This document shows positions 10,303 through 24,977 of a stretch of 64,000 nt of DNA, piece by piece; the first letter of the stretch is position 1; each line of letters begins with the position of its first letter. The stretch lies in the NCBI RefSeq assembly GCF_044324875.1, contig NZ_CP172188.1; one strand, written 5' to 3'. A program made the position numbers and the translations under genes. This DNA is from Escherichia coli (GTDB taxonomy: Bacteria > Pseudomonadota > Gammaproteobacteria > Enterobacterales > Enterobacteriaceae). Under the pieces are notes generated by a model. The model did not search any database. It worked only from the letters and a program-made list of their open reading frames with translations, and was not told the DNA's origin.

Positions 10303-11838
10303 TCAGTGGTAGTAGCCCGGACCACGCAGGTTTTCATGCTCTGAAGCATATGCCGGATGTTGTTCGCCCTGGCGGGATAATGGAAGCTCCAGGTTCTCCC
10401 GATGGTGACGCAGCAGATTGTCGATAAAGCGTCTGTCAGGGGCGTTATAGTGCAGGGCAACGTAACAGGCCTTTTCCAGCCGTTCCGGGCCGTATTTTTT
10501 CTGAAGTGCCAGCAGCCCCAGAACTGCACGATAAGCCAGTTCCGGATGGGGTTTTGCCTTCAGCATGGATTCAACCACCCGGCCTGTGGACGGGCCCGTA
10601 CGTTTTCCCTGCTCGATCAGGCGTTCCGGTGTCCATGTCCCGTGCTGCCGGTGGCGCTCTGGCATGTGAAGCGGATTGGTTGTGTGTTTATATTCATGTG
10701 TGCTGCGCGGATGTTGCGCCACACACTGCCCCTTGTGCCAGAGCTGTACCACCGACTGCCCCGCCTTCAGTGACAGACGCTGACCGACCAGTTCGTGTGG
10801 AACGGAGTACCAGTGACGGGCATATTCAACGTGGTAGTCAGGGCCAACCTTCACAGCTTTGTATTCCGTGTATTCATAAGGTGCCAGAGGCAGCGGAGAG
10901 AGTGCTGGCGCATCCAGTATGCGGAAGCGTTCTGCACGGGTTTGATTGCCGTACCCCTTCATTGGCCGGTTATTCATGTCTGTCAGTAACTCCCTAAGGC
11001 GCGCATTCAGCGCCCTGAGCGTGTGGAAGGTTTCATTACGGATGCGGGCAAGAAGCCATCGTTCAACGATGAGGACGCCGTTTTCTGCTTTTGGTTTATC
11101 TTTAGGTTTGCGTGGTCGGGCCGGGATGATAACCGTGCCATAGTGCTCAGCCAGTGCCTGATAACTGTCGTTGATGACAGGCTCATATCGATCGGCCTTT
11201 TTCACTGCGCTTCTGAGGTTATCGGGGATGAGCAGCTTCGGTACGCCGCCCAGGAAGGTCAGGCAACGGCTGTGGGCATTTAACCATGACATCATGTCCT
11301 GACCTTCGCACGCTTCAACGTAGGTATAGTTGGACGCCCCCATTACGGCCACGAAGATTGCCACGCGGCGTATCTCACCGGTGTCCGGATTAATAACAGG
11401 AACCGTAGGACCACAGAAGTCGATAAAAAGCTTTTCGCCGGCACGATGCTCCTGGCGCATGGAGAGACGTCGCGTTTTTTTCCACTCCCGGTAGCAACGG
11501 CAGAAGTGCGAGTATCCCATCGCTTTGTTACCCGCCTGTGCCTTGTATTCCATCCACAACAGTTGCCGCGTCACACCTGGTTTTCTCATTTCCGTATCGA
11601 AGTACAACATGTCAGGCATTACAAGCTCTGATGCAAAGGTGTCTTTGGGCGGAAAAATGAGTTTCTCCAGCGTGTCATGGGATATATCAGCAGGTAATGG
11701 CCATGACAGAGAAGAGGCTTTGAAGCGGGCAAGAACCTCAAAAACGGTTGAGGCGCTGATGTGTAACGTCAGTCCGATACAACGGTTAGTCAGCTTCTTG
11801 TCGAACTTGAGCTGAAGGATCTTAAAACAGGTTTCCAT
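10303..11838 (-). CDS. istA: IS21 transposase IstA
   Basis: DDE transposase with N-terminal HTH; ORF 10303..11949, likely start ATG at 11838 (METCFKIL). Confidence 0.8.
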   Translation of the reverse strand: METCFKILQLKFDKKLTNRCIGLTLHISASTVFEVLARFKASSLSWPLPADISHDTLEKLIFPPKDTFASELVMPDMLYFDTEMRKPGVTRQLLWMEYKAQAGNKAMGYSHFCRCYREWKKTRRLSMRQEHRAGEKLFIDFCGPTVPVINPDTGEIRRVAIFVAVMGASNYTYVEACEGQDMMSWLNAHSRCLTFLGGVPKLLIPDNLRSAVKKADRYEPVINDSYQALAEHYGTVIIPARPRKPKDKPKAENGVLIVERWLLARIRNETFHTLRALNARLRELLTDMNNRPMKGYGNQTRAERFRILDAPALSPLPLAPYEYTEYKAVKVGPDYHVEYARHWYSVPHELVGQRLSLKAGQSVVQLWHKGQCVAQHPRSTHEYKHTTNPLHMPERHRQHGTWTPERLIEQGKRTGPSTGRVVESMLKAKPHPELAYRAVLGLLALQKKYGPERLEKACYVALHYNAPDRRFIDNLLRHHRENLELPLSRQGEQHPAYASEHENLRGPGYYH

Positions 11839-12228
11839 AGTGCTCCTGGATTTTCTCTTTCTGGACATTGACGTCTCCACTGGTTTAAACACGGCAATGG
11901 AGACTGTGGTGAAAAGAGTTAATTCCCGGAGTGACTGGCAGGATGCCAATCAATGATCGGAAGCATGCCAAATCGTGATCGATTGTGATGCCAAACTGTG
12001 ATCGGAGATGGATGCCAAATCATGATCGATTCGAATGCCAAACTGCGATCGATTCAGATGCCATTTTGCAGCCAAATTTCTGTCAAAAAATAAAATCCAC
12101 AAAAAGTGGTTGACACTATTTTGGAAATCACAAACTGCACATAATCCATCGCGCTAACGGCTCCCGTTGAAGGTTCTTTTGACGATTAACTTTCAGCCGA
12201 AGCGCGGTAGGGAGTCATAACGCCAAAG

Positions 12229-12935: not shown

Positions 12936-13272
12936 TCACATTAGTAGCTTTGTTAACTCCCTCAATACCAGGTAGAAGAGTAACAAAAACACTGACGTGG
13001 ATACCTGCTGAGTTAAAGAAGCACTAATGAATTTATTCAATAAATCAATCAGCTTATTAAAAATATTCATCTTTTCGAATCCATTCGATCGGTAAATAAC
13101 ACCCAGCTCACTATCGAGCTGGTCCACGCCTTAAGATTAATGAAAGTCACTTGTTGACAGTCAATAAATTCCAGGGTGGCGAAAAAACTCTGTCTATACG
13201 GATAGTGCTTGCATTTTACTCTTTCTGCGTGTAGCGTATATACACAGGTTGCACGCACGAATGGAATTATTT

Positions 13273-13553
13273 TGATTAAGTCATTTCGCCATAAAGGGCT
13301 TGAACGCTTTTTCAAGACAGGTTCAACCGCAGGCATTCAGGCCAAACATGCGGTTAAGCTACGCATTCAATTGACTGCGCTTAATACAGCTAAACGCCCG
13401 GACGATATGTCTGCGCCTGGATGGGAATTGCACCCTCTAAAGGGGGCGGACCTTAAAGGTCACTGGGCAATATCGGTAAACGGTAACTGGCGACTTACCT
13501 TCCGATTTGAAGGAGAAGACGCAATTCTAGTTGACTATCAGGATTATCATTGA
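13273..13553 (+). CDS. higB: HigB-type toxin (plasmid maintenance killer protein family)
   Basis: (M)[13 protein letters not shown]...[40 protein letters not shown] matches this toxin family; family-typical start is TTG 13273 (ORF track ATG 13209). Confidence 0.75.
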
Positions 13554-13561
13554 GGAACACT

Positions 13562-13843
13562 ATGAGTCGTATGCATAATCCCGCGCATCCAGGCGCGGTT
13601 CTTCGTGAATATTTGGGAGACATGTCAGTCACAGACGCCGCTGCGGCATTAGGCATTACTCGCACGGCGCTTTCCCGAATTCTGAATGAAAAAGCAGGTA
13701 TATCTGCTGATATGGCACTTCGTCTGGAGTCCGCTCTTGGAACCAGTGCCGAAATGTGGACCGGTATGCAATCCCAGTATGAGCTTTGGGTTGCTTCGCA
13801 AACCACTCGCCCAAACATCCGTCCATTATTTTTCCACGCATAA
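13562..13843 (+). CDS. higA: HigA-type antitoxin (XRE helix-turn-helix)
   Basis: HTH region [42 protein letters not shown] directly after the toxin; ATG 13562 with GAGGAA RBS. Confidence 0.75.
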
Positions 13844-14265: not shown

Positions 14266-15448
14266 TTTCCTGAAAAACCAGGACGGGCGCTATATCACTG
14301 ACGGCCTGTCCTCTAAGGACTTCACGCGTTTATTCGACCTTATCAGGAAAGAACAAACCCGTAAGCGCCGGCAAGCTCACCGGACGCTGACGCCAGGTAG
14401 ACTGAGGAACAAATCCGCCGAAGATATTCTCAAGTTAGGGAAGAAAAAAGGCGGCACGTTCTTCACGCGAGACGACCTGAAAGGTTTCGAAAAGCTACGG
14501 AGTAAAACGCGCGAAAAATATGACAGCAAGACGGCTGGCATCACATACGCCCAGCTGGTGGCATCCAGCCAGGCAATCGATATTAAGCGTGCAAATAACG
14601 CCGTGGATGACGGATCTGGTATCAAAAGAGCTACACCCGTATCTCTTCGCCACAATGTGATTAATATCCGCGTAGAAGCATCGGATATATCCGTCCACCA
14701 GCACCATATCGTCCGGATACGCTTTGAAGAATGGGATCAGATGGTTGATGATATCGCAGAAGACGATAAATCAGCTCTCAAAATCACTAAATCACTGTGC
14801 GCCGGGCGAGTGTCTTTCGATTGTGACTGTGGTCGTCATCAATACTGGTATCGTTACATCGCCACTGCGGGTAACTTTGCCCTGGCACCGCCAAAAGAAT
14901 ACGCCTATCCAAAAGTTCGCAACCCGAAGCTGCAAGGCGTCGCCTGTAAACACGTGATCCACTCAATGACGCGGTTACAGTCCGCCAGTTGGCAAATGAG
15001 TATTGCTCGTGCGCTACAAAAGGCTGCAACGCAAATTGCATTTGGTGACGATCGCCGCCGTACAACCAAACACTTCTCAAAAGAAGACGAGAAGGAGTTT
15101 AATCGCAATCGTAGCAGTAAAACAAACGTTGAAGCCGCCAAACGCGAATGGAGGCTCTATCAGAAGCGCCAGGCAGCTTTAAGTACAAAACTGGCAAAGG
15201 ACAACGGCAATATCGACAAGCTACGTGACCAATTGACCAGGGCCAGAAAGTTGTCAGACGCACAGAAAAAACGGGCGGCTGCAAAAGAAGCGGCCTTGCA
15301 ACGTGAGAAACAGAAAAATAAGGAACTTCAGCAACGCCTTGCCGATCAGTTCGCACTGAAGAAGCAGGCGTTCATTGATGCGCTTGTCATGGCTGGAACA
15401 CCACCAGCACAAGCTGAAAAAATGTTCATGGAGTACATAAAAAATTAA
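14258..15448 (+). CDS. SWIM zinc-finger-containing protein with basic coiled-coil C-terminus (396 aa)
   Basis: CxC...CxH pattern (FDCDCGRHQYW...GVACKHVIH) consistent with a SWIM finger; K/R/Q-rich coiled-coil tail. Confidence 0.5.
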   Translation: MPDFLKNQDGRYITDGLSSKDFTRLFDLIRKEQTRKRRQAHRTLTPGRLRNKSAEDILKLGKKKGGTFFTRDDLKGFEKLRSKTREKYDSKTAGITYAQLVASSQAIDIKRANNAVDDGSGIKRATPVSLRHNVINIRVEASDISVHQHHIVRIRFEEWDQMVDDIAEDDKSALKITKSLCAGRVSFDCDCGRHQYWYRYIATAGNFALAPPKEYAYPKVRNPKLQGVACKHVIHSMTRLQSASWQMSIARALQKAATQIAFGDDRRRTTKHFSKEDEKEFNRNRSSKTNVEAAKREWRLYQKRQAALSTKLAKDNGNIDKLRDQLTRARKLSDAQKKRAAAKEAALQREKQKNKELQQRLADQFALKKQAFIDALVMAGTPPAQAEKMFMEYIKN

Positions 15449-15459
15449 CAAAGGTGGGT

Positions 15460-16200
15460 TTATCCCACCTTTTTATTAGCATCGCATTTAATTTTTTCAA
15501 GTGAATCAGAAAGCTTTGAGAGAATCTCCTCAAGTGTCTCCCTGTCATTTGTATCACCCGAACGAAAAGATGAGTTTTTCACGGCAGTAAAAAATTCATA
15601 AAAATCATCCAACGAATTTAAGCTCTCACCTTTCTCTCTATATAATTTAATAACATGACGGATATCGCTATCCACACATTCAATCTGTTCCCTAACTTCT
15701 TCTACCTTTCTTTTTAATGATTCATGTTCTTCTTTTTCTTTTTCAAGACGCTCTTCAACGTCTTTCCGTTTCTTAGTAAGATCATTAATGTCTCTGTTAA
15801 TTTTTCTTACTTGTTCTTTTTTGTCTTCAATTTTATCTATCTCTCTCAATTTAGCGTATATTGTGCCAGTCACCATAGAAATTAGTAAAGTTAACATTGG
15901 GGCTAATATTGAAGCCACAACACCATAAATAAAAGGCAAGACAAAATGAGCTACGAATGAGGGTACAAAAACATTCCCAAATAATGGAATCTTTTCCCCA
16001 ACAAACACCATAGATAATGTATACATAACATCATCTTTTGACTTCAACAATATAAATATATCTCGCCAGTTAGAAATTAAAAATGAAATAAAAATGTAGG
16101 CAAAAACCTTATTAAACAACTTATCTTTTACAGCATCTTCTATCAGATTTTGGGCGGATGATTTTTCATTTTCCTTTTCTATTGATGAATCAGTGCTCAT
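15460..16200 (-). CDS. membrane-anchored coiled-coil protein of unknown function (246 aa)
   Basis: Very AT-rich gene; N-terminal hydrophobic helices then a long charged coiled-coil (KEQVRKINRDINDLTKKRKDVEERLEKEKEEHESLKRK). Confidence 0.5.
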   Translation of the reverse strand: MSTDSSIEKENEKSSAQNLIEDAVKDKLFNKVFAYIFISFLISNWRDIFILLKSKDDVMYTLSMVFVGEKIPLFGNVFVPSFVAHFVLPFIYGVVASILAPMLTLLISMVTGTIYAKLREIDKIEDKKEQVRKINRDINDLTKKRKDVEERLEKEKEEHESLKRKVEEVREQIECVDSDIRHVIKLYREKGESLNSLDDFYEFFTAVKNSSFRSGDTNDRETLEEILSKLSDSLEKIKCDANKKVG

Positions 16201-16260
16201 ATAATCACCAAATATTTAAACCTTGATTTTATGTAAAATCGGCCCTCCAGACTGCCAAAC

Positions 16261-16641
16261 TTAAACACCAACTAGGCTTTCAAGAGGAATGCCAAACTGG
16301 GAATGTAAACGACGAATCATAGGTAACGTTAAATTTCGTGTCCCATTTAGCACTTCGTAAACACGATTTGACTTACCAATCGCCGGTTCCAGATCCTTCA
16401 CGGTCAACCCTTGCTATTCCATACGGGATTTAATGGCTTCAATAGGTGATGGCGGCTCAATTGGGTAATGTTTTTTCTCGTACTCCTCAATGAGAAGACA
16501 CATAACCTCCAAGAAATTACCTTCCGGGGTGTTCGTTTCCGGTTCGTTATCGAACATCGGTTCTACCGCACGCAGTGCGGCCTCATAATCTTGTTCTGTA
16601 CGGATAGTTTTAATGTTCATTAATTCCAAAGGAAAGCCCAC
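16261..16641 (-). pseudogene. HigA-like HTH antitoxin/regulator interrupted by an in-frame amber codon
   Basis: ORF 16414..16641 ends at TAG (16414-16416); same frame continues QGLTVKDLEPAIGKSNRVYEVLNGTRNLTLPMIRRLHSQFGIPLESLVGV to TAA at 16261 (hand-translated). Confidence 0.55.
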
Positions 16642-16676
16642 TTGTTAAGTGGGCTTTTTGTATGTGTTTTACTATA

Positions 16677-17015
16677 TCAGGCTGCTTTTTTATTCAGGTT
16701 CCGCTGAGAAATAAATTTTTCAGCAGTATTGATACGACTTAACTCTTCCTGAACGCGCATGTCATTTTCGACTTCCCACAGGTCTACTGCGGTCTGGAGA
16801 TTAATCCAAAAATCTACAGAAGTATCGAATGCTTTTGCCAGGCGATATGCCATATCCATCGTTAGCTTACGATTATTATTAACAAGAGCACTTACGGTGT
16901 TACGATGAACATGAAGTATTTCTGCTAACTCGTTGATCTTCAGCTCTAACGGCTCCAGGTATTCGTACAGCAGGATATCACCTACGGTCGTCGGTTTTCT
17001 GGTTGCCTGTTTCAT
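16677..17015 (-). CDS. higA: HigA-type antitoxin (HTH), second module
   Basis: HTH LAEILHVHRNTVSALVNNNRKLTMDMAYRLAKAF; immediately downstream of the toxin gene. Confidence 0.75.
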   Translation of the reverse strand: MKQATRKPTTVGDILLYEYLEPLELKINELAEILHVHRNTVSALVNNNRKLTMDMAYRLAKAFDTSVDFWINLQTAVDLWEVENDMRVQEELSRINTAEKFISQRNLNKKAA

Positions 17016-17085
17016 TTTTTGCCCTTACTAGCGTGCGTATTAAGTGGACTCTGGTCAGAACCCGGTCCGTAACCGGGTATCTGTT

Positions 17086-17388
17086 TTAGTATTTGTGAGG
17101 GTCGAGATACAAGTCCTCGGCCTTTCCGTTAACCCACTTAAAAATTAACCTATATTGCTTATTCACCCTTACTGATGAATAGCCATTTAGCTTCCCTGAC
17201 AGTTCCTCATACCGATTACCTGGTGGTGATCTTAAATCCTTACAGGTAGTTGCGGCATTGATAATGTCCAACTTCCGTGACAATGTCATATGAATATCAG
17301 GAGGTATCTTTCTATGTGGTGTTGAAAATTCAAAAAAATCATCAAGCCACGCATCCCTGAAATCCTTTATGTTAATTTTTTTGGTCAT
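17086..17388 (-). CDS. higB: HigB-type toxin (killer protein family), second module
   Basis: NRYEELSGKLNGYSSVRVNKQYRLIFKW...LYLDPHKY fits the toxin family; palindromic operator-like gcgcactgttgcactgtgcgc upstream. Confidence 0.75.
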   Translation of the reverse strand: MTKKINIKDFRDAWLDDFFEFSTPHRKIPPDIHMTLSRKLDIINAATTCKDLRSPPGNRYEELSGKLNGYSSVRVNKQYRLIFKWVNGKAEDLYLDPHKY

Positions 17389-17550
17389 TAGTCATTTGAT
17401 CCTCCGTGATGATTACCGAATGCCATAACTATAGCGCACTGTTGCACTGTGCGCAAGTGCATTTTATGAATTCCCCCTCCTTCATCCAAAATCACAATCT
17501 CCCGAAAATCTTCCTTTCGATACCTGACAGATCGACCTTTGAGGATGCTT

Positions 17551-18342
17551 ATGGGCCGTTTTGACGAATGGTTTGCTGACGATGCAAACCTGGCAAGTAA
17601 GGAGTCAGAACATGACAGCACGCAGAGAGAAACGCCAGCACCGATTGAAGCGAATGCAGGAGGCGCGCCGGAACATGGCAATACCGGTTCGGATTCATTC
17701 AGCATTCTGGAAGAGCAACCCGCCGCCAAAGCTGATAGCCATGATAATTTTGCTGATAGCAACGGTGGCCTTACTTCGGATGCTGGCGAATCAGATATAG
17801 CCATACTTCCATCTTCCCTGGCTGGCAGAGAACCGACTCCACAGTTAAAAGCACGCTATAACGGGCATAAAGCCTTTAACGACCAAATCCGCGCAGACTG
17901 GATGCTGATTATTGAATCCAGCCCAGACGCGTTTCAGGCTCTCTTATATCGACCAGATGTTGGCACATATGGGGTAGTCAGCGACGAAACAGGAGAAGAG
18001 TCATTCACCGAACTGGATAACAACCAACGCGAACTGACTTACCAGGAACCTGAAATCGTTTATGTGCTGGATAACCCTGACGGGCGTGACTCTTTCCATG
18101 CGATTGACGCAGACGGTGAGCAGGATGGCTTAACCGATGATGTTCTGATTCTGCGTATTGCAGCAAATAACGTCCCCGTCGGCTCAATTCTTGAATGGAA
18201 TGAAGAGATGGTAAACGGCGTAGCGCGCCGCTGGTGGTACGTGCACCGTATTTTTAGCTACGGCACACAGCATGTTGGTTCGCTTTACTACTGCATACCT
18301 GCCAGGAATTTTGATACGACTCAAAACGGAGTGATCGAATGA
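17551..18342 (+). CDS. acidic phage structural/baseplate-module protein (264 aa)
   Basis: ATG 17551 with TGAGG RBS; first gene of four translationally coupled genes ending in a spike-like protein. Confidence 0.45.
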   Translation: MGRFDEWFADDANLASKESEHDSTQRETPAPIEANAGGAPEHGNTGSDSFSILEEQPAAKADSHDNFADSNGGLTSDAGESDIAILPSSLAGREPTPQLKARYNGHKAFNDQIRADWMLIIESSPDAFQALLYRPDVGTYGVVSDETGEESFTELDNNQRELTYQEPEIVYVLDNPDGRDSFHAIDADGEQDGLTDDVLILRIAANNVPVGSILEWNEEMVNGVARRWWYVHRIFSYGTQHVGSLYYCIPARNFDTTQNGVIE

Positions 18343-23315: not shown

Positions 23316-24977
23316 TTAACCTAACTTCGCCCAGGTATCACGCAGCCCAACGGTGCGGTTAAATACCGGTTTTTCCGCCGTAGAATGGCGGCTATCGAGG
23401 CAGAAGTAACCTTCACGCTCAAACTGGAATGCTTTACCCGCAACCGCATCTTTCAGCGACGGTTCAGCAAAGCCCTGTTTGATCACCAGCGATTCCGGGT
23501 TAATCACCGACAGGAAATCATCCGCAGCACCTGGGTTAGGCACGCTGAACAGACGATCGTACAGGCGGATTTCAACCGGCAGCGCATGTGCCGCGCTCAC
23601 CCAGTGAATAACGCCTTTCACTTTACGACCATCTGCCGGATCTTTGCTTAAGGTGTCGGCGTCATAAGTACAGAAGATGGTGGTGATATTGCCTTCGGCA
23701 TCTTTCTCCACGCGTTCAGCCTTAATGACGTAAGCATTACGCAGACGCACTTCTTTACCCAGCACCAGACGTTTGTACTGCTTGTTAGCTTCTTCGCGGA
23801 AATCGGCGCGGTCGATCCAAATCTCACCGCTAAACGGCACCTGACGGCTACCCATTTCCGGTTTGTTCGGATGGTTCGGCATGGTGACCATTTCGCCTTC
23901 GCCCTGGTAGTTTTCGATAACCAGTTTCACCGGATCGATAACCGCCATTGCGCGCGGCGCATTTTCGTTGAGATCTTCACGGATGCAGGATTCCAGCGAC
24001 GCCATCTCAATGGTGTTGTCCTGCTTGGTCACGCCGATGCGTTTGCAGAACTCACGAATAGAAGCCGCAGTGTAACCACGACGACGCAGACCGGAAATGG
24101 TCGGCATACGCGGGTCATCCCAGCCTTCAACGTGTTTGTCGGTCACCAGCAGGTTCAGCTTACGCTTGGACATCACGGTGTATTCCAGATTCAGGCGCGA
24201 GAATTCGTACTGGCGCGGGTGAACAGGAATGGTGATGTTGTCCAGCACCCAGTCGTACAGGCGACGGTTGTCCTGGAACTCAAGCGTACACAGAGAGTGC
24301 GTAATACCTTCCAGCGCATCGCTGATGCAATGGGTGAAGTCGTACATCGGGTAGATGCACCACTTGTTGCCAGTCTGGTGGTGTTCAGCAAATTTAATGC
24401 GGTACAGCACCGGATCGCGCATTACGATAAATGGCGACGCCATGTCGATTTTCGCACGCAGGCAGGCTTTACCTTCTTCAAAACCACCGGCACGCATTTT
24501 TTCGAACAGCGCCAGGTTCTCTTCAACGCTGCGATCGCGGTACGGGCTGTTTTTACCCGGCTGCGTCAGGGTGCCGCGGTATTCGCGGATCTGTTCCGGC
24601 GTCAGTTCGTCAACATACGCCAGGCCTTTGTTGATCAGTTCAACAGCATAGGCGTGGAGCTGATCAAAATAATCGGAGGAGTAACGGATGTTGCCAGACC
24701 AGTGAAAACCTAACCATTCAACGTCGTTTTTAATCGACTCGACGTACTCGATATCTTCTTTTACCGGGTTAGTGTCGTCGAAACGCAGGTTGCACTGGCC
24801 TTTATAGTCCTGGGCGATCCCGAAGTTCAGGCAGATAGATTTCGCATGACCAATATGCAGATAGCCATTCGGTTCCGGCGGGAAACGGGTATGTACTGTG
24901 GTGTGCTTACCACTGGCCAGATCTTCATCGATGATCTGACGAATAAAGTTAGTCGGGCGGGCTTCTGCCTCACTCAT
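23316..24977 (-). CDS. glnS: glutaminyl-tRNA synthetase
   Basis: 553 aa; class I aaRS HIGH ([13 protein letters not shown]) and KMSKS-like (VMSKRK) motifs; essentially collinear with E. coli GlnS as recalled from memory. Confidence 0.95.

What the first reader, a model, noticed from the sequence alone, without database searches (positions are those of the whole stretch)
16261..17388. higBA module followed by a HigA-like gene split by an in-frame amber codon
Downstream of an intact toxin-antitoxin pair lies a second antitoxin-like gene whose N-terminal half and HTH half are in the same frame, separated only by TAG at 16414-16416. It is either a fresh pseudogene leaving a truncated N-domain-only protein, or is expressed by amber suppression. 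A truncated N-domain could also act as a regulatory decoy.
Basis: seen in the sequence. Interest (0 to 1): 0.45.

Follow-up and report, generated by a model that had tools for sequence, protein, structure and literature searches.

The report
Orphaned antitoxin gene killed by amber codon
A phage-plasmid related to E. coli phage D6 carries a working-looking toxin-antitoxin pair, followed by a leftover antitoxin gene from a different pair that lost its toxin in a cassette swap and has since been cut short by a CAG-to-TAG mutation, so it is an ordinary decaying gene remnant and not a recoding event.

Summary
On the minus strand lie higB (17388..17086), higA (17015..16677) and a third antitoxin-like gene (16620..16261). 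The third gene is interrupted only by TAG at 16416..16414 (codon 69).

The TAG is not a sequencing error. The exact truncated product occurs on about 200 public contigs, on backbones that differ by up to 2%.

Homologues are single 119-aa genes with an invariant Gln (CAG) at this codon. The third gene belongs to the E. coli K-12 HigA (YgjM) type, whose normal partner is a PF09907 HigB toxin encoded directly upstream. Sibling D6-like plasmids carry exactly that pair at the same locus.

In the window's lineage, and in D6 itself, the toxin gene, its promoter and the Shine-Dalgarno sequence were replaced. In their place sits an unrelated PF05015/TIGR02607 higBA cassette plus a hairpin. That left the antitoxin orphaned.

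Orphaned copies are disrupted far more often than paired ones: 11 of 16 against 1 of 32. Causes are the TAG, a common deletion of the HTH half, and a frameshift.

The window allele also carries an excess of amino-acid replacements. There is no suppressor tRNA and no sign of TAG recoding.

Verdict: a nonsense pseudogene of an orphaned antitoxin. A residual role for the N-terminal toxin-binding fragment is not excluded but is unsupported.

The parts
17086..17388 (-). higB toxin gene, 100 aa, RelE/ParE-fold 'HigB-like toxin' of the Rts1/killer-protein type
   Evidence: PF05015 E 4.4e-35, 120.5 bits against a cut-off of 27. phrog_3066 'toxin of TA system' E 3.7e-37. The exact protein is on at least 1000 contigs.
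16677..17015 (-). higA antitoxin gene, 112 aa, cognate partner of the PF05015 toxin
   Evidence: TIGR02607 antidote_HigA E 7.9e-30, 102.5 bits against a cut-off of 47.7. PF01381 HTH_3 E 7e-11. phrog_1381 'plasmid antitoxin with HTH domain'.
17389..17488 (-). Promoter/operator region that arrived with the PF05015 higBA cassette. It includes the inverted repeat 17443-17461. The right junction of the cassette swap is near 17488.
   Evidence: Alignment with sibling plasmids that carry the PF09907 pair: identical from the divergent tail gene up to about 17488, unrelated beyond it. The inverted repeat is listed. Promoter and operator function is inferred.
16631..16659 (-). G+C-rich hairpin (10-bp stem) followed by a U-rich tract, between higA and the third gene. 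It is probably the terminator of the higBA operon and ends about 10 nt before the third gene's ATG.
   Evidence: Terminator-like site. RNA fold centroid -14.6 kcal/mol, z = -2.3. Terminator function is inferred.
16621..17488 (-). The swapped-in cassette as a whole: promoter, PF05015 higB, TIGR02607 higA and hairpin. It occupies the place where sibling plasmids have the promoter and the PF09907 higB.
   Evidence: Left junction immediately upstream of the ATG at 16620. Right junction near 17488. Sibling loci L024 and L025 have a PF09907 HigB gene there.
16261..16620 (-). Orphaned K-12-type HigA (YgjM-like) antitoxin gene, 119 codons plus stop, now a nonsense pseudogene
   Evidence: Full-length homology to 119-aa proteins, to PDB 5IFG_B and 5YCL_A and to phrog_1373. 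The AF2 model has pLDDT 92, and its best PDB folds are E. coli and Shigella HigA.
16414..16416 (-). In-frame amber codon TAG (codon 69), derived from CAG (Gln) by one C-to-T transition on the coding strand
   Evidence: Window has GAA TAG CAA where D6 and CP031917 have GAA CAG CAA. Gln69 is invariant in 41 homologues including K-12 HigA Gln90. The TAG is present in 12 of 12 fetched contigs of this allele.
16417..16620 (-). Remaining translatable part: 68 codons. These cover the N-terminal two-helix domain (helices 9-24 and 32-51), a Pro-rich linker, and the first helix of the HTH domain.
   Evidence: AF2 secondary structure. The N-terminal domain is the dimerisation and toxin-binding part in this family (PMC7160566). 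Five lineage-specific replacements are P5T, M29T, D35N, F37L and F65S.
16264..16413 (-). Untranslated remnant of the Xre-type HTH DNA-binding domain (codons 70-119), still an open frame
   Evidence: PF01381 HTH_3 covers residues 63-115 of the repaired protein. One carrier of the allele (L012) already has P79S at an invariant Pro.

Best explanation
The third gene is a decaying relic.

How it arose. D6-like phage-plasmids have an accessory-gene slot between tail and baseplate genes (the P1 gene 25/26 side and the gene 7/24 side). One common occupant is a two-gene module. It consists of a PF09907 HigB toxin followed 3 nt later by a 119-aa HigA antitoxin of the E. coli K-12 YgjM type. In the lineage that includes phage D6 and this window, recombination replaced about 400 bp, holding the promoter and the PF09907 toxin gene. 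The replacement is an unrelated 868-bp cassette holding a promoter/operator, a PF05015 HigB, a TIGR02607 HigA and a hairpin. The old antitoxin gene was left behind without its toxin, without its own promoter and without its GGAG Shine-Dalgarno sequence.

What followed. With nothing to neutralise and little expression, the gene is under relaxed selection and is being lost in several ways. In this window's lineage the way is a CAG-to-TAG change at codon 69, on top of five amino-acid replacements.

Functional consequence. Plasmid addiction in this element is carried by the intact PF05015/TIGR02607 pair. At most, the third gene yields a weakly expressed 68-aa fragment that lacks the DNA-binding domain.

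Shown here: the gene families, the swap junctions, the TAG, its ancestry, its spread and the disruption census.

Inferred: the direction of the swap, the low expression, and the loss of function.
For: 1. Family and normal partner. The repaired protein matches K-12 HigA over both domains (E 6e-9; Foldseek top hits 6JQ4, 6KMQ_B, 6KML_B, 5YCL). Homologues at 80-83% identity in Kluyvera chromosomes and Salmonella prophages sit 5-6 nt downstream of a 100-aa PF09907 HigB gene.

2. Same locus in sibling plasmids. CP088573 and LT906557 (same replicon cluster 1704) have PF09907 higB plus this higA between the same tail genes.

3. Swap junctions. Homology to those siblings ends right at the ATG and resumes near 17488. 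The GGAG before the ATG is replaced by the hairpin tail.

4. No PF09907 toxin anywhere in the 64-kb window (best tblastn E 1.9).

5. Census of 48 IMG/VR loci:
- 32 are paired with the PF09907 toxin: 31 intact and 1 frameshift.
- 16 are orphaned: 5 intact, 1 with the TAG, 9 with the HTH half deleted and 1 with a frameshift.
- Fisher p = 2e-6.

6. In PLSDB about 112 plasmids keep the N-terminal half at 87% identity or more, but only about 39 keep the HTH half.

7. The window branch carries 6 nonsynonymous and 4 synonymous private changes. The comparison D6 against a paired allele gives 2 and 22. Fisher p = 0.003. T5, N35 and S65 fall in columns that are at least 90% conserved.

8. The TAG is inherited: 174 + 28 contigs, on backbones differing by up to 49 SNPs in 2.25 kb of flanking tail genes.
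Against: - The reading frame after the TAG is still open. It has no private amino-acid change in the window allele (0 nonsynonymous against 2 synonymous). So decay after the stop is not yet visible, apart from P79S in one carrier.
- All three disruptions spare the first 51 or more codons, which include the toxin-binding domain. With three events this is compatible with chance (about 0.2), but it is also what selection for an HTH-less fragment would give.
- Intact orphan alleles are common: the D6 allele appears to be the one on 899 contigs (assignment of the two 119-aa entries inferred). They show low dN/dS against paired alleles (0.02-0.05), although that divergence may predate orphaning or reflect allele exchange.
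- The contigs in the census are not phylogenetically independent. With distinct alleles as units the contrast is weak (3 of 8 against 1 of 16, p = 0.09).
- Two of the disruptions (L063 and L067) may be assembly errors.
- Expression was not measured.
Confidence: 0.8

Rival explanations
1. The truncated gene is functional as an HTH-less antitoxin. The 68-aa N-terminal fragment, like the 66-aa deletion variant, would still bind PF09907-type HigB toxins made by competing D6-like plasmids, by prophages or by host defence systems. It would protect the cell or the phage-plasmid by anti-addiction or counter-defence. Loss of the DNA-binding domain would be neutral or even favoured.
For: - In this antitoxin family the N-terminal domain carries dimerisation and toxin binding, and the C-terminal domain carries DNA binding (PMC7160566).
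- The AF2 model shows a separate two-helix N-domain at residues 9-51, upstream of both truncation points.
- Two robust independent truncations fall at codons 61 and 69, at the domain boundary.
- The deletion form is very common, on at least 1000 contigs, and has its own phage protein family, phrog_10398.
- Orphan alleles are 94-96% identical to antitoxins paired with a toxin at the same locus in sibling, presumably incompatible, plasmids.
- Anti-addiction and phage orphan-antitoxin counter-defence are both established concepts (PMC2654758; PMC11257639).
- PF09907 HigB with this HigA also sits in Salmonella prophages. A HigB/HigA-like pair is part of the defence system PD-lambda-2 (PMC9519451).
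Against: - The window fragment carries five private replacements, three of them at positions that are at least 90% conserved. That looks like drift rather than conservation.
- The Shine-Dalgarno sequence was lost, and a hairpin terminator lies about 10 nt upstream.
- No promoter-like site lies between higA and the ATG.
- Three disruption events are too few to show a positional preference.
- The abundance of each form may simply follow the success of the plasmid lineage.
Confidence: 0.12
2. The full-length 119-aa antitoxin is still made by reading TAG as an amino acid. This could happen through an amber suppressor tRNA, or through natural near-cognate readthrough by tRNA-Gln, which would restore the ancestral Gln.
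For: - The downstream half remains an intact open frame in all carriers examined.
- The ancestral residue is Gln. Own knowledge: Gln is what near-cognate decoding of UAG, or a supE-type suppressor, inserts.
- The stop is followed by C (TAG C). Own knowledge: this is a comparatively weak termination context in E. coli.
- The element encodes its own glutaminyl-tRNA synthetase at 23316-24977.
Against: - No tRNA gene in the window.
- D6-like elements are reported to carry tRNAs for Asn, Thr, Ser and Met only (PMC6799933).
- TAG ends 4 of 51 long ORFs, and there is no excess of TAG-split frames.
- No homologue has a stop at this codon, so nothing suggests a programmed signal.
- Own knowledge: natural isolates rarely carry amber suppressors, and basal readthrough is of the order of 1% or less.
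- The only 'full-length' database entry for this allele is an artefact of gene calling with another genetic code.
Confidence: 0.05
3. The TAG is a sequencing or assembly error, and the gene is intact in the real plasmid.
For: Nothing specific. It is a single-base difference from homologues.
Against: - The same truncated product appears on 174 + 28 contigs from NCBI, ENA and Logan assemblies.
- The TAG was read in 12 of 12 fetched contigs from different samples and with different flanks.
- The change is a substitution and does not lie in a homopolymer.
Confidence: 0.01

Closest known systems
E. coli K-12 HigB-HigA (YgjN-YgjM; PDB 5IFG, 6KML, 6JQ4) and Salmonella SehA-SehB
   Same: - The third gene has the same two-domain antitoxin architecture: an N-terminal helical toxin-binding and dimerisation domain and a C-terminal Xre HTH.
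- Sequence match E 6e-9 over residues 6-112.
- Best structural matches in the PDB.
- Close homologues follow a PF09907 HigB gene, with the toxin gene first.
   Different: - Only about 32-34% identical.
- 119 aa instead of 138-142 aa.
- In this window it has no toxin partner, no own promoter or SD, and an amber codon at the position of K-12 Gln90.
Rts1-type HigBA (PF05015 HigB-like toxin with TIGR02607 HigA)
   Same: The intact upstream pair at 17388..16677 matches both family models far above their cut-offs and has the toxin-first gene order. D6-like plasmids are described as using higBA as an addiction system (PMC6799933).
   Different: This is a different antitoxin family from the third gene. 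Its HTH is N-terminal and it has no separate N-terminal toxin-binding domain. The two 'HigA' genes are not duplicates of each other.
Orphan antitoxins and the anti-addiction model (chromosomal ccd against F-plasmid ccd), including decay of such modules
   Same: This is an antitoxin gene without a toxin, closely related to antitoxins of complete modules on competing elements. The model itself predicts that such genes may lose their function and decay (PMC2654758).
   Different: Here the orphan sits on the mobile element itself, at the very locus where siblings carry the complete module, next to a replacement module. No protective effect has been tested.
PD-lambda-2 anti-phage defence system (Vassallo et al. 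2022)
   Same: The repaired protein matches the first 119 of 402 positions of the PADLOC model PD-Lambda-2_B (E 4.3e-42). That system also starts with a HigB-like gene (PMC9519451).
   Different: [quoted passage not shown] Neither is present here, and no HigB of that type is in the window.

Membership tests
K-12-type HigA (YgjM/SehB-like) antitoxin, partner of PF09907 HigB | Two-domain protein: an N-terminal helical domain and a C-terminal Xre-type HTH, homologous over its full length to solved HigA of E. coli and Shigella | tested here: met
   With TAG read as Gln: phmmer E 6e-9 to 5IFG_B and 5YCL_A over residues 6-112. HTH_3 covers residues 63-115. The AF2 model has pLDDT 92, and Foldseek top hits are 6JQ4, 6KMQ_B, 6KML_B and 5YCL.
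K-12-type HigA (YgjM/SehB-like) antitoxin, partner of PF09907 HigB | Encoded immediately downstream of, and co-transcribed with, a PF09907 HigB toxin gene | tested here: not met
   The upstream neighbour is a TIGR02607 HigA plus a hairpin. No PF09907 homologue exists in the window. The feature is met in close homologues.
K-12-type HigA (YgjM/SehB-like) antitoxin, partner of PF09907 HigB | Uninterrupted reading frame of about 119 codons | tested here: not met
   TAG at codon 69.
K-12-type HigA (YgjM/SehB-like) antitoxin, partner of PF09907 HigB | Neutralises its toxin and represses its own operon | not testable with these tools
   Needs co-expression and DNA-binding assays.
Rts1-type HigBA module (the upstream pair) | PF05015 toxin followed by a TIGR02607 antitoxin, toxin gene first, both above the curated cut-offs | tested here: met
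   120.5 bits against a cut-off of 27, and 102.5 bits against a cut-off of 47.7. Gene order.
Rts1-type HigBA module (the upstream pair) | Toxicity of HigB, neutralisation by HigA, and plasmid stabilisation | not testable with these tools
   Only asserted for D6-like plasmids in the literature (PMC6799933).
Gene expressed by stop-codon suppression or programmed readthrough | A suppressor tRNA in the element, or genome-wide reassignment of TAG | tested here: not met
   No tRNA in the window. TAG terminates 4 of 51 long ORFs, and TAG-split frames are not enriched. D6-like tRNAs are Asn, Thr, Ser and Met (PMC6799933). The part of the plasmid outside the window was not seen.
Gene expressed by stop-codon suppression or programmed readthrough | The in-frame stop is conserved among homologues | tested here: not met
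   All other alleles and 41 aligned homologues have Gln. The stop is confined to one allele lineage.
PD-lambda-2 defence system | The B component is a HigA-like domain fused to a C-terminal peptidase, within a three-gene operon with a HigB-like A and a P4-antitoxin-like C | tested here: not met
   The match covers only profile positions 1-119 of 402. The gene ends at 119 codons. There is no such A or C gene. Definition from PMC9519451.
Functional orphan antitoxin (anti-addiction or counter-defence) | An antitoxin without a toxin, closely related to antitoxins of complete modules in competing elements | tested here: met
   94-96% protein identity to paired alleles at the same locus of sibling plasmids.
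Functional orphan antitoxin (anti-addiction or counter-defence) | Maintained by selection in the orphan state | tested here: inconclusive
   11 of 16 orphan loci are disrupted, against 1 of 32 paired. The window branch has 6 nonsynonymous against 4 synonymous changes. Intact orphans are nevertheless common, and the units are not independent.

The most novel reading that the evidence does not exclude
The loss of the HTH domain is not decay but streamlining. After the toxin-antitoxin cassette was exchanged, the phage-plasmid would keep only the toxin-binding N-terminal module of the old antitoxin. The amber codon and, independently, the common deletion would both achieve this. The result would be a small trans-acting neutraliser of PF09907 HigB toxins from rival D6-like plasmids, from prophages or from HigB-based defence systems. 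That would be an anti-addiction or counter-defence peptide born from a cassette swap.
Probability: 0.1. Interest if true: 0.5.

Novelty: new member of a known kind. Interest (0 to 1): 0.2.

Why it matters
As it stands, this is a tidy but ordinary example of how toxin-antitoxin modules turn over on mobile elements. One module displaces the toxin of another, and the stranded antitoxin decays.

Practical value:
- The two neighbouring 'HigA' genes belong to different families.
- The third gene should be annotated as a pseudogene of an orphaned antitoxin, not as a 'transcriptional regulator'.
- A 'full-length' database entry for this allele comes from gene calling with the wrong genetic code.

The locus would be of wider interest only if the HTH-less fragments turned out to neutralise HigB toxins in trans. 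It would then show how mobile elements compete through addiction modules.

Tried and rejected
1. Sequencing error: rejected. The exact truncated products are on about 200 contigs, and the TAG was read in 12 of 12 fetched contigs.

2. An 'intact ancestor with identical sequence'. The database holds a 119-aa protein identical to the repaired allele (P0123). Its two contigs contain the TAG, so it is an artefact of gene calling with another code.

3. Two normally separate genes: rejected by 4537 single-ORF homologues.

4. TAG reassignment or a suppressor: no tRNA and normal stop-codon usage.

5. A hidden partner toxin:
- There is no PF09907 homologue in the window.
- The gap between higA and the third gene is 56 nt and is filled by a hairpin.
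- The downstream 246-aa membrane/coiled-coil gene varies independently. It is present or absent, and has different alleles, whatever the antitoxin state. It was therefore not taken as a partner.

6. A known RNA element: no Rfam match in 15000-18000 at E up to 0.1.

7. dN/dS to test selection on intact orphans. The values are low (0.02-0.05), but the divergence cannot be assigned to the time after orphaning, so the test is uninformative.

8. Selection on the N-half within the deletion lineage: only 3 polymorphisms, too few.

9. The paper describing D6 (Gilcrease and Casjens 2018) could not be read.
Full report
**What is there**

The window is part of a P1-like phage-plasmid of the D6 group. The 1.25 kb around the finding is 97.3% identical to Escherichia phage D6, where three genes are annotated in the same order. 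They are a RelE-family toxin and two 'HigA family' antitoxins, orf70 to orf72, lying between tail genes similar to P1 genes 25/26 and 7/24. About 110 plasmids of E. coli, Salmonella and Shigella in PLSDB, and 92 plasmids of complete E. coli genomes, match this stretch. None is identical.

On the minus strand the window has:
- higB at 17388..17086 (PF05015, E 4.4e-35);
- higA at 17015..16677 (TIGR02607, E 7.9e-30);
- a hairpin at 16631-16659;
- a third gene.

Translating 16641..16261 gives one frame with a single stop, TAG, at 16416..16414. Comparison with homologues puts the real start at the ATG at 16620. The gene is therefore 119 codons plus a stop, and the TAG is codon 69.

**Is the TAG real, and what was there before?**

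D6 and plasmid CP031917 read GAA CAG CAA where the window reads GAA TAG CAA. This is one C-to-T transition. Gln at this position is invariant in 41 aligned homologues, including Gln90 of E. coli K-12 HigA.

The exact truncated products are on record from many contigs of NCBI, ENA and Logan assemblies. The 75-aa form, from the GTG, is on 174 contigs. The 68-aa form, from the ATG, is on 28. All 12 contigs that I fetched carry the TAG. These carriers differ from each other by up to 49 substitutions in the adjacent 2.25 kb of tail genes. They also differ in what lies downstream. The allele is therefore inherited and widely spread. It is neither an error nor a private mutation.

A 119-aa protein identical to the repaired allele exists in the protein collection. 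Its two contigs contain the TAG, so it is a product of gene calling with another genetic code.

**What the third gene is**

With TAG read as Gln, the protein has 4537 relatives, and the best 120 are 113-134 aa long. So the two halves are normally one gene.

It matches the solved E. coli K-12 and Shigella HigA over both domains (E 6e-9). An AlphaFold model (pLDDT 92) shows these elements:
- two N-terminal helices, residues 9-24 and 32-51;
- a Pro-rich linker;
- a five-helix Xre-type HTH domain, with helices at 59-70, 74-81, 84-91, 99-109 and 113-117.

The best PDB matches of the model are again E. coli and Shigella HigA. In this family the N-terminal domain carries dimerisation and toxin binding, and the C-terminal domain binds DNA (PMC7160566). 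The TAG lies at the end of the first helix of the HTH domain. The remaining product would be the N-domain, the linker and one helix.

This is a different family from the neighbouring TIGR02607 HigA. The two 'HigA' genes are not duplicates.

**Its missing partner and the cassette swap**

Homologues at 80-83% identity in Kluyvera chromosomes and in Salmonella prophages lie 5-6 nt downstream of a 100-aa PF09907 HigB toxin gene.

More telling, sibling D6-like plasmids of the same replicon cluster (CP088573, LT906557) have exactly this pair, PF09907 higB followed by the 119-aa higA. It lies in the same slot between the same tail genes.

Alignment shows that homology between the two arrangements stops immediately upstream of the antitoxin's ATG. 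It resumes near window position 17488, in the intergenic region before the divergent tail gene. Between these points the siblings have a promoter and the PF09907 toxin, about 400 bp. The window and D6 have an 868-bp cassette with another promoter region, PF05015 higB, TIGR02607 higA and the hairpin.

The GGAG that precedes the ATG in the paired arrangement is gone. In the window the ATG follows the U-rich tail of a hairpin of -14.6 kcal/mol, and no promoter-like site lies between higA and the ATG. No PF09907 homologue exists anywhere in the window.

The third gene is thus an orphaned antitoxin. I infer that the paired state is ancestral, because it is the canonical arrangement in chromosomes, prophages and plasmids. 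The direction of the swap is not proven.

**Orphans decay**

| Arrangement in IMG/VR (48 loci) | Loci | Intact | Disrupted |
|---|---|---|---|
| Paired with the PF09907 toxin | 32 | 31 | 1 (one-base homopolymer frameshift) |
| Orphaned behind the PF05015 cassette | 16 | 5 | 11 (1 TAG, 9 HTH-half deletion, 1 frameshift) |

The TAG locus is the window's own allele. In the nine deletion loci, everything after codon 61 is replaced, which gives a 66-aa ORF ending in SFNYP. The contrast is strong when contigs are counted (Fisher p = 2e-6). It is weak when distinct alleles are counted (p = 0.09). Both frameshifts could be assembly errors.

PLSDB agrees. About 112 plasmids keep the N-terminal half at 87% identity or more, but only about 39 keep the HTH half. 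The 66-aa form is on at least 1000 contigs. It even has its own phage protein family, phrog_10398.

The window allele has ten private substitutions relative to its ten closest alleles:
- six change the protein: P5T, M29T, D35N, F37L, F65S and Q69stop;
- four are silent;
- the comparison of D6 with a paired allele gives 2 and 22, Fisher p = 0.003.

T5, N35 and S65 replace residues that are at least 90% conserved in the family. This fits relaxed constraint.

**Suppression**

- ARAGORN finds no tRNA in the window.
- D6-like elements are reported to carry tRNAs for Asn, Thr, Ser and Met, and a glnS gene (PMC6799933). The glnS gene is at 23316-24977 in the window.
- TAG ends 4 of 51 long ORFs, and frames split by TAG are not enriched.
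- No homologue has a stop at codon 69.

From general knowledge, near-cognate reading of UAG inserts Gln, and UAG followed by C is a weak terminator. A trace of wild-type protein is therefore conceivable, but nothing indicates a designed mechanism.

**What remains open**

Both well-supported truncations, at codons 61 and 69, spare the N-terminal domain that binds the toxin in this family. The orphan alleles are 94-96% identical to antitoxins that are paired with a toxin in sibling plasmids. A small HTH-less fragment could therefore still neutralise PF09907 toxins in trans.

This would fit the anti-addiction idea (PMC2654758) or phage orphan-antitoxin counter-defence (PMC11257639). The family is also related to the HigA-like part of component B of the defence system PD-lambda-2 (E 4e-42 to the first 119 of 402 profile positions; PMC9519451). 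The peptidase domain and the third gene of that system are absent here.

Against a retained function are the private replacements at conserved positions, the lost ribosome-binding site, the hairpin and the small number of independent events. I put this reading at about 0.1.

**Verdict**

This is a real and correctly described feature with an ordinary explanation. It is a nonsense pseudogene of an antitoxin that was orphaned when one higBA-type cassette displaced the toxin of another, in a variable slot of D6-like phage-plasmids. Interest is low.

Noticed in passing
window 13209-13843 (+): A second toxin-antitoxin pair of the PF05015 type lies only about 3 kb away. It has a HigB-like toxin (PF05015, E 1.2e-20; the true start is probably internal to the 114-aa ORF) and a 97-aa HTH_3 antitoxin that overlaps it by 4 nt. 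It is present in some carriers of the TAG allele (L013, L015, L016, L018) and absent in others.
   Followed up: partly
window 15460-16200 (-): A 246-aa protein with an N-terminal membrane-like part and a C-terminal coiled coil (phrog_8191, unknown function; only weak SMC/JetC-like coiled-coil matches). It lies directly downstream of the orphan antitoxin. It exists as at least three divergent alleles and is absent from some relatives, so the slot is a hot spot of accessory-gene exchange.
   Followed up: partly
window 23316-24977 (-): A plasmid-borne glutaminyl-tRNA synthetase gene (tRNA-synt_1c, E 4.7e-130). It is reported as a hallmark of D6-like elements with unknown role (PMC6799933).
   Followed up: no
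window 10303-11949 (-): A 548-aa ORF with an integrase core (rve) and a Mu-transposase C-terminal domain. It suggests a transposable element inserted in the phage-plasmid.
   Followed up: no
L022 268-627 and L023 145-504 (ENA metagenome contigs): The protein collection holds a 119-aa 'intact' version of the window allele. Its contigs contain the TAG, so the gene caller must have used a code that reads TAG as Gln. This is a caution for database look-ups of split genes.
   Followed up: yes
window 17060-17078 and 17443-17461: Two short G+C-rich inverted repeats. One lies in the 70-nt spacer between higB and higA, the other upstream of higB. They may be operator or processing sites of the intact higBA module.
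   Followed up: no
L008-L011 2193-2860 (Salmonella contigs): The complete PF09907 HigB plus 119-aa HigA pair sits as a moron inside a lambdoid prophage tail region, between a minor tail gene and the tape-measure gene. The same module thus travels between prophages, chromosomes and phage-plasmids.
   Followed up: no
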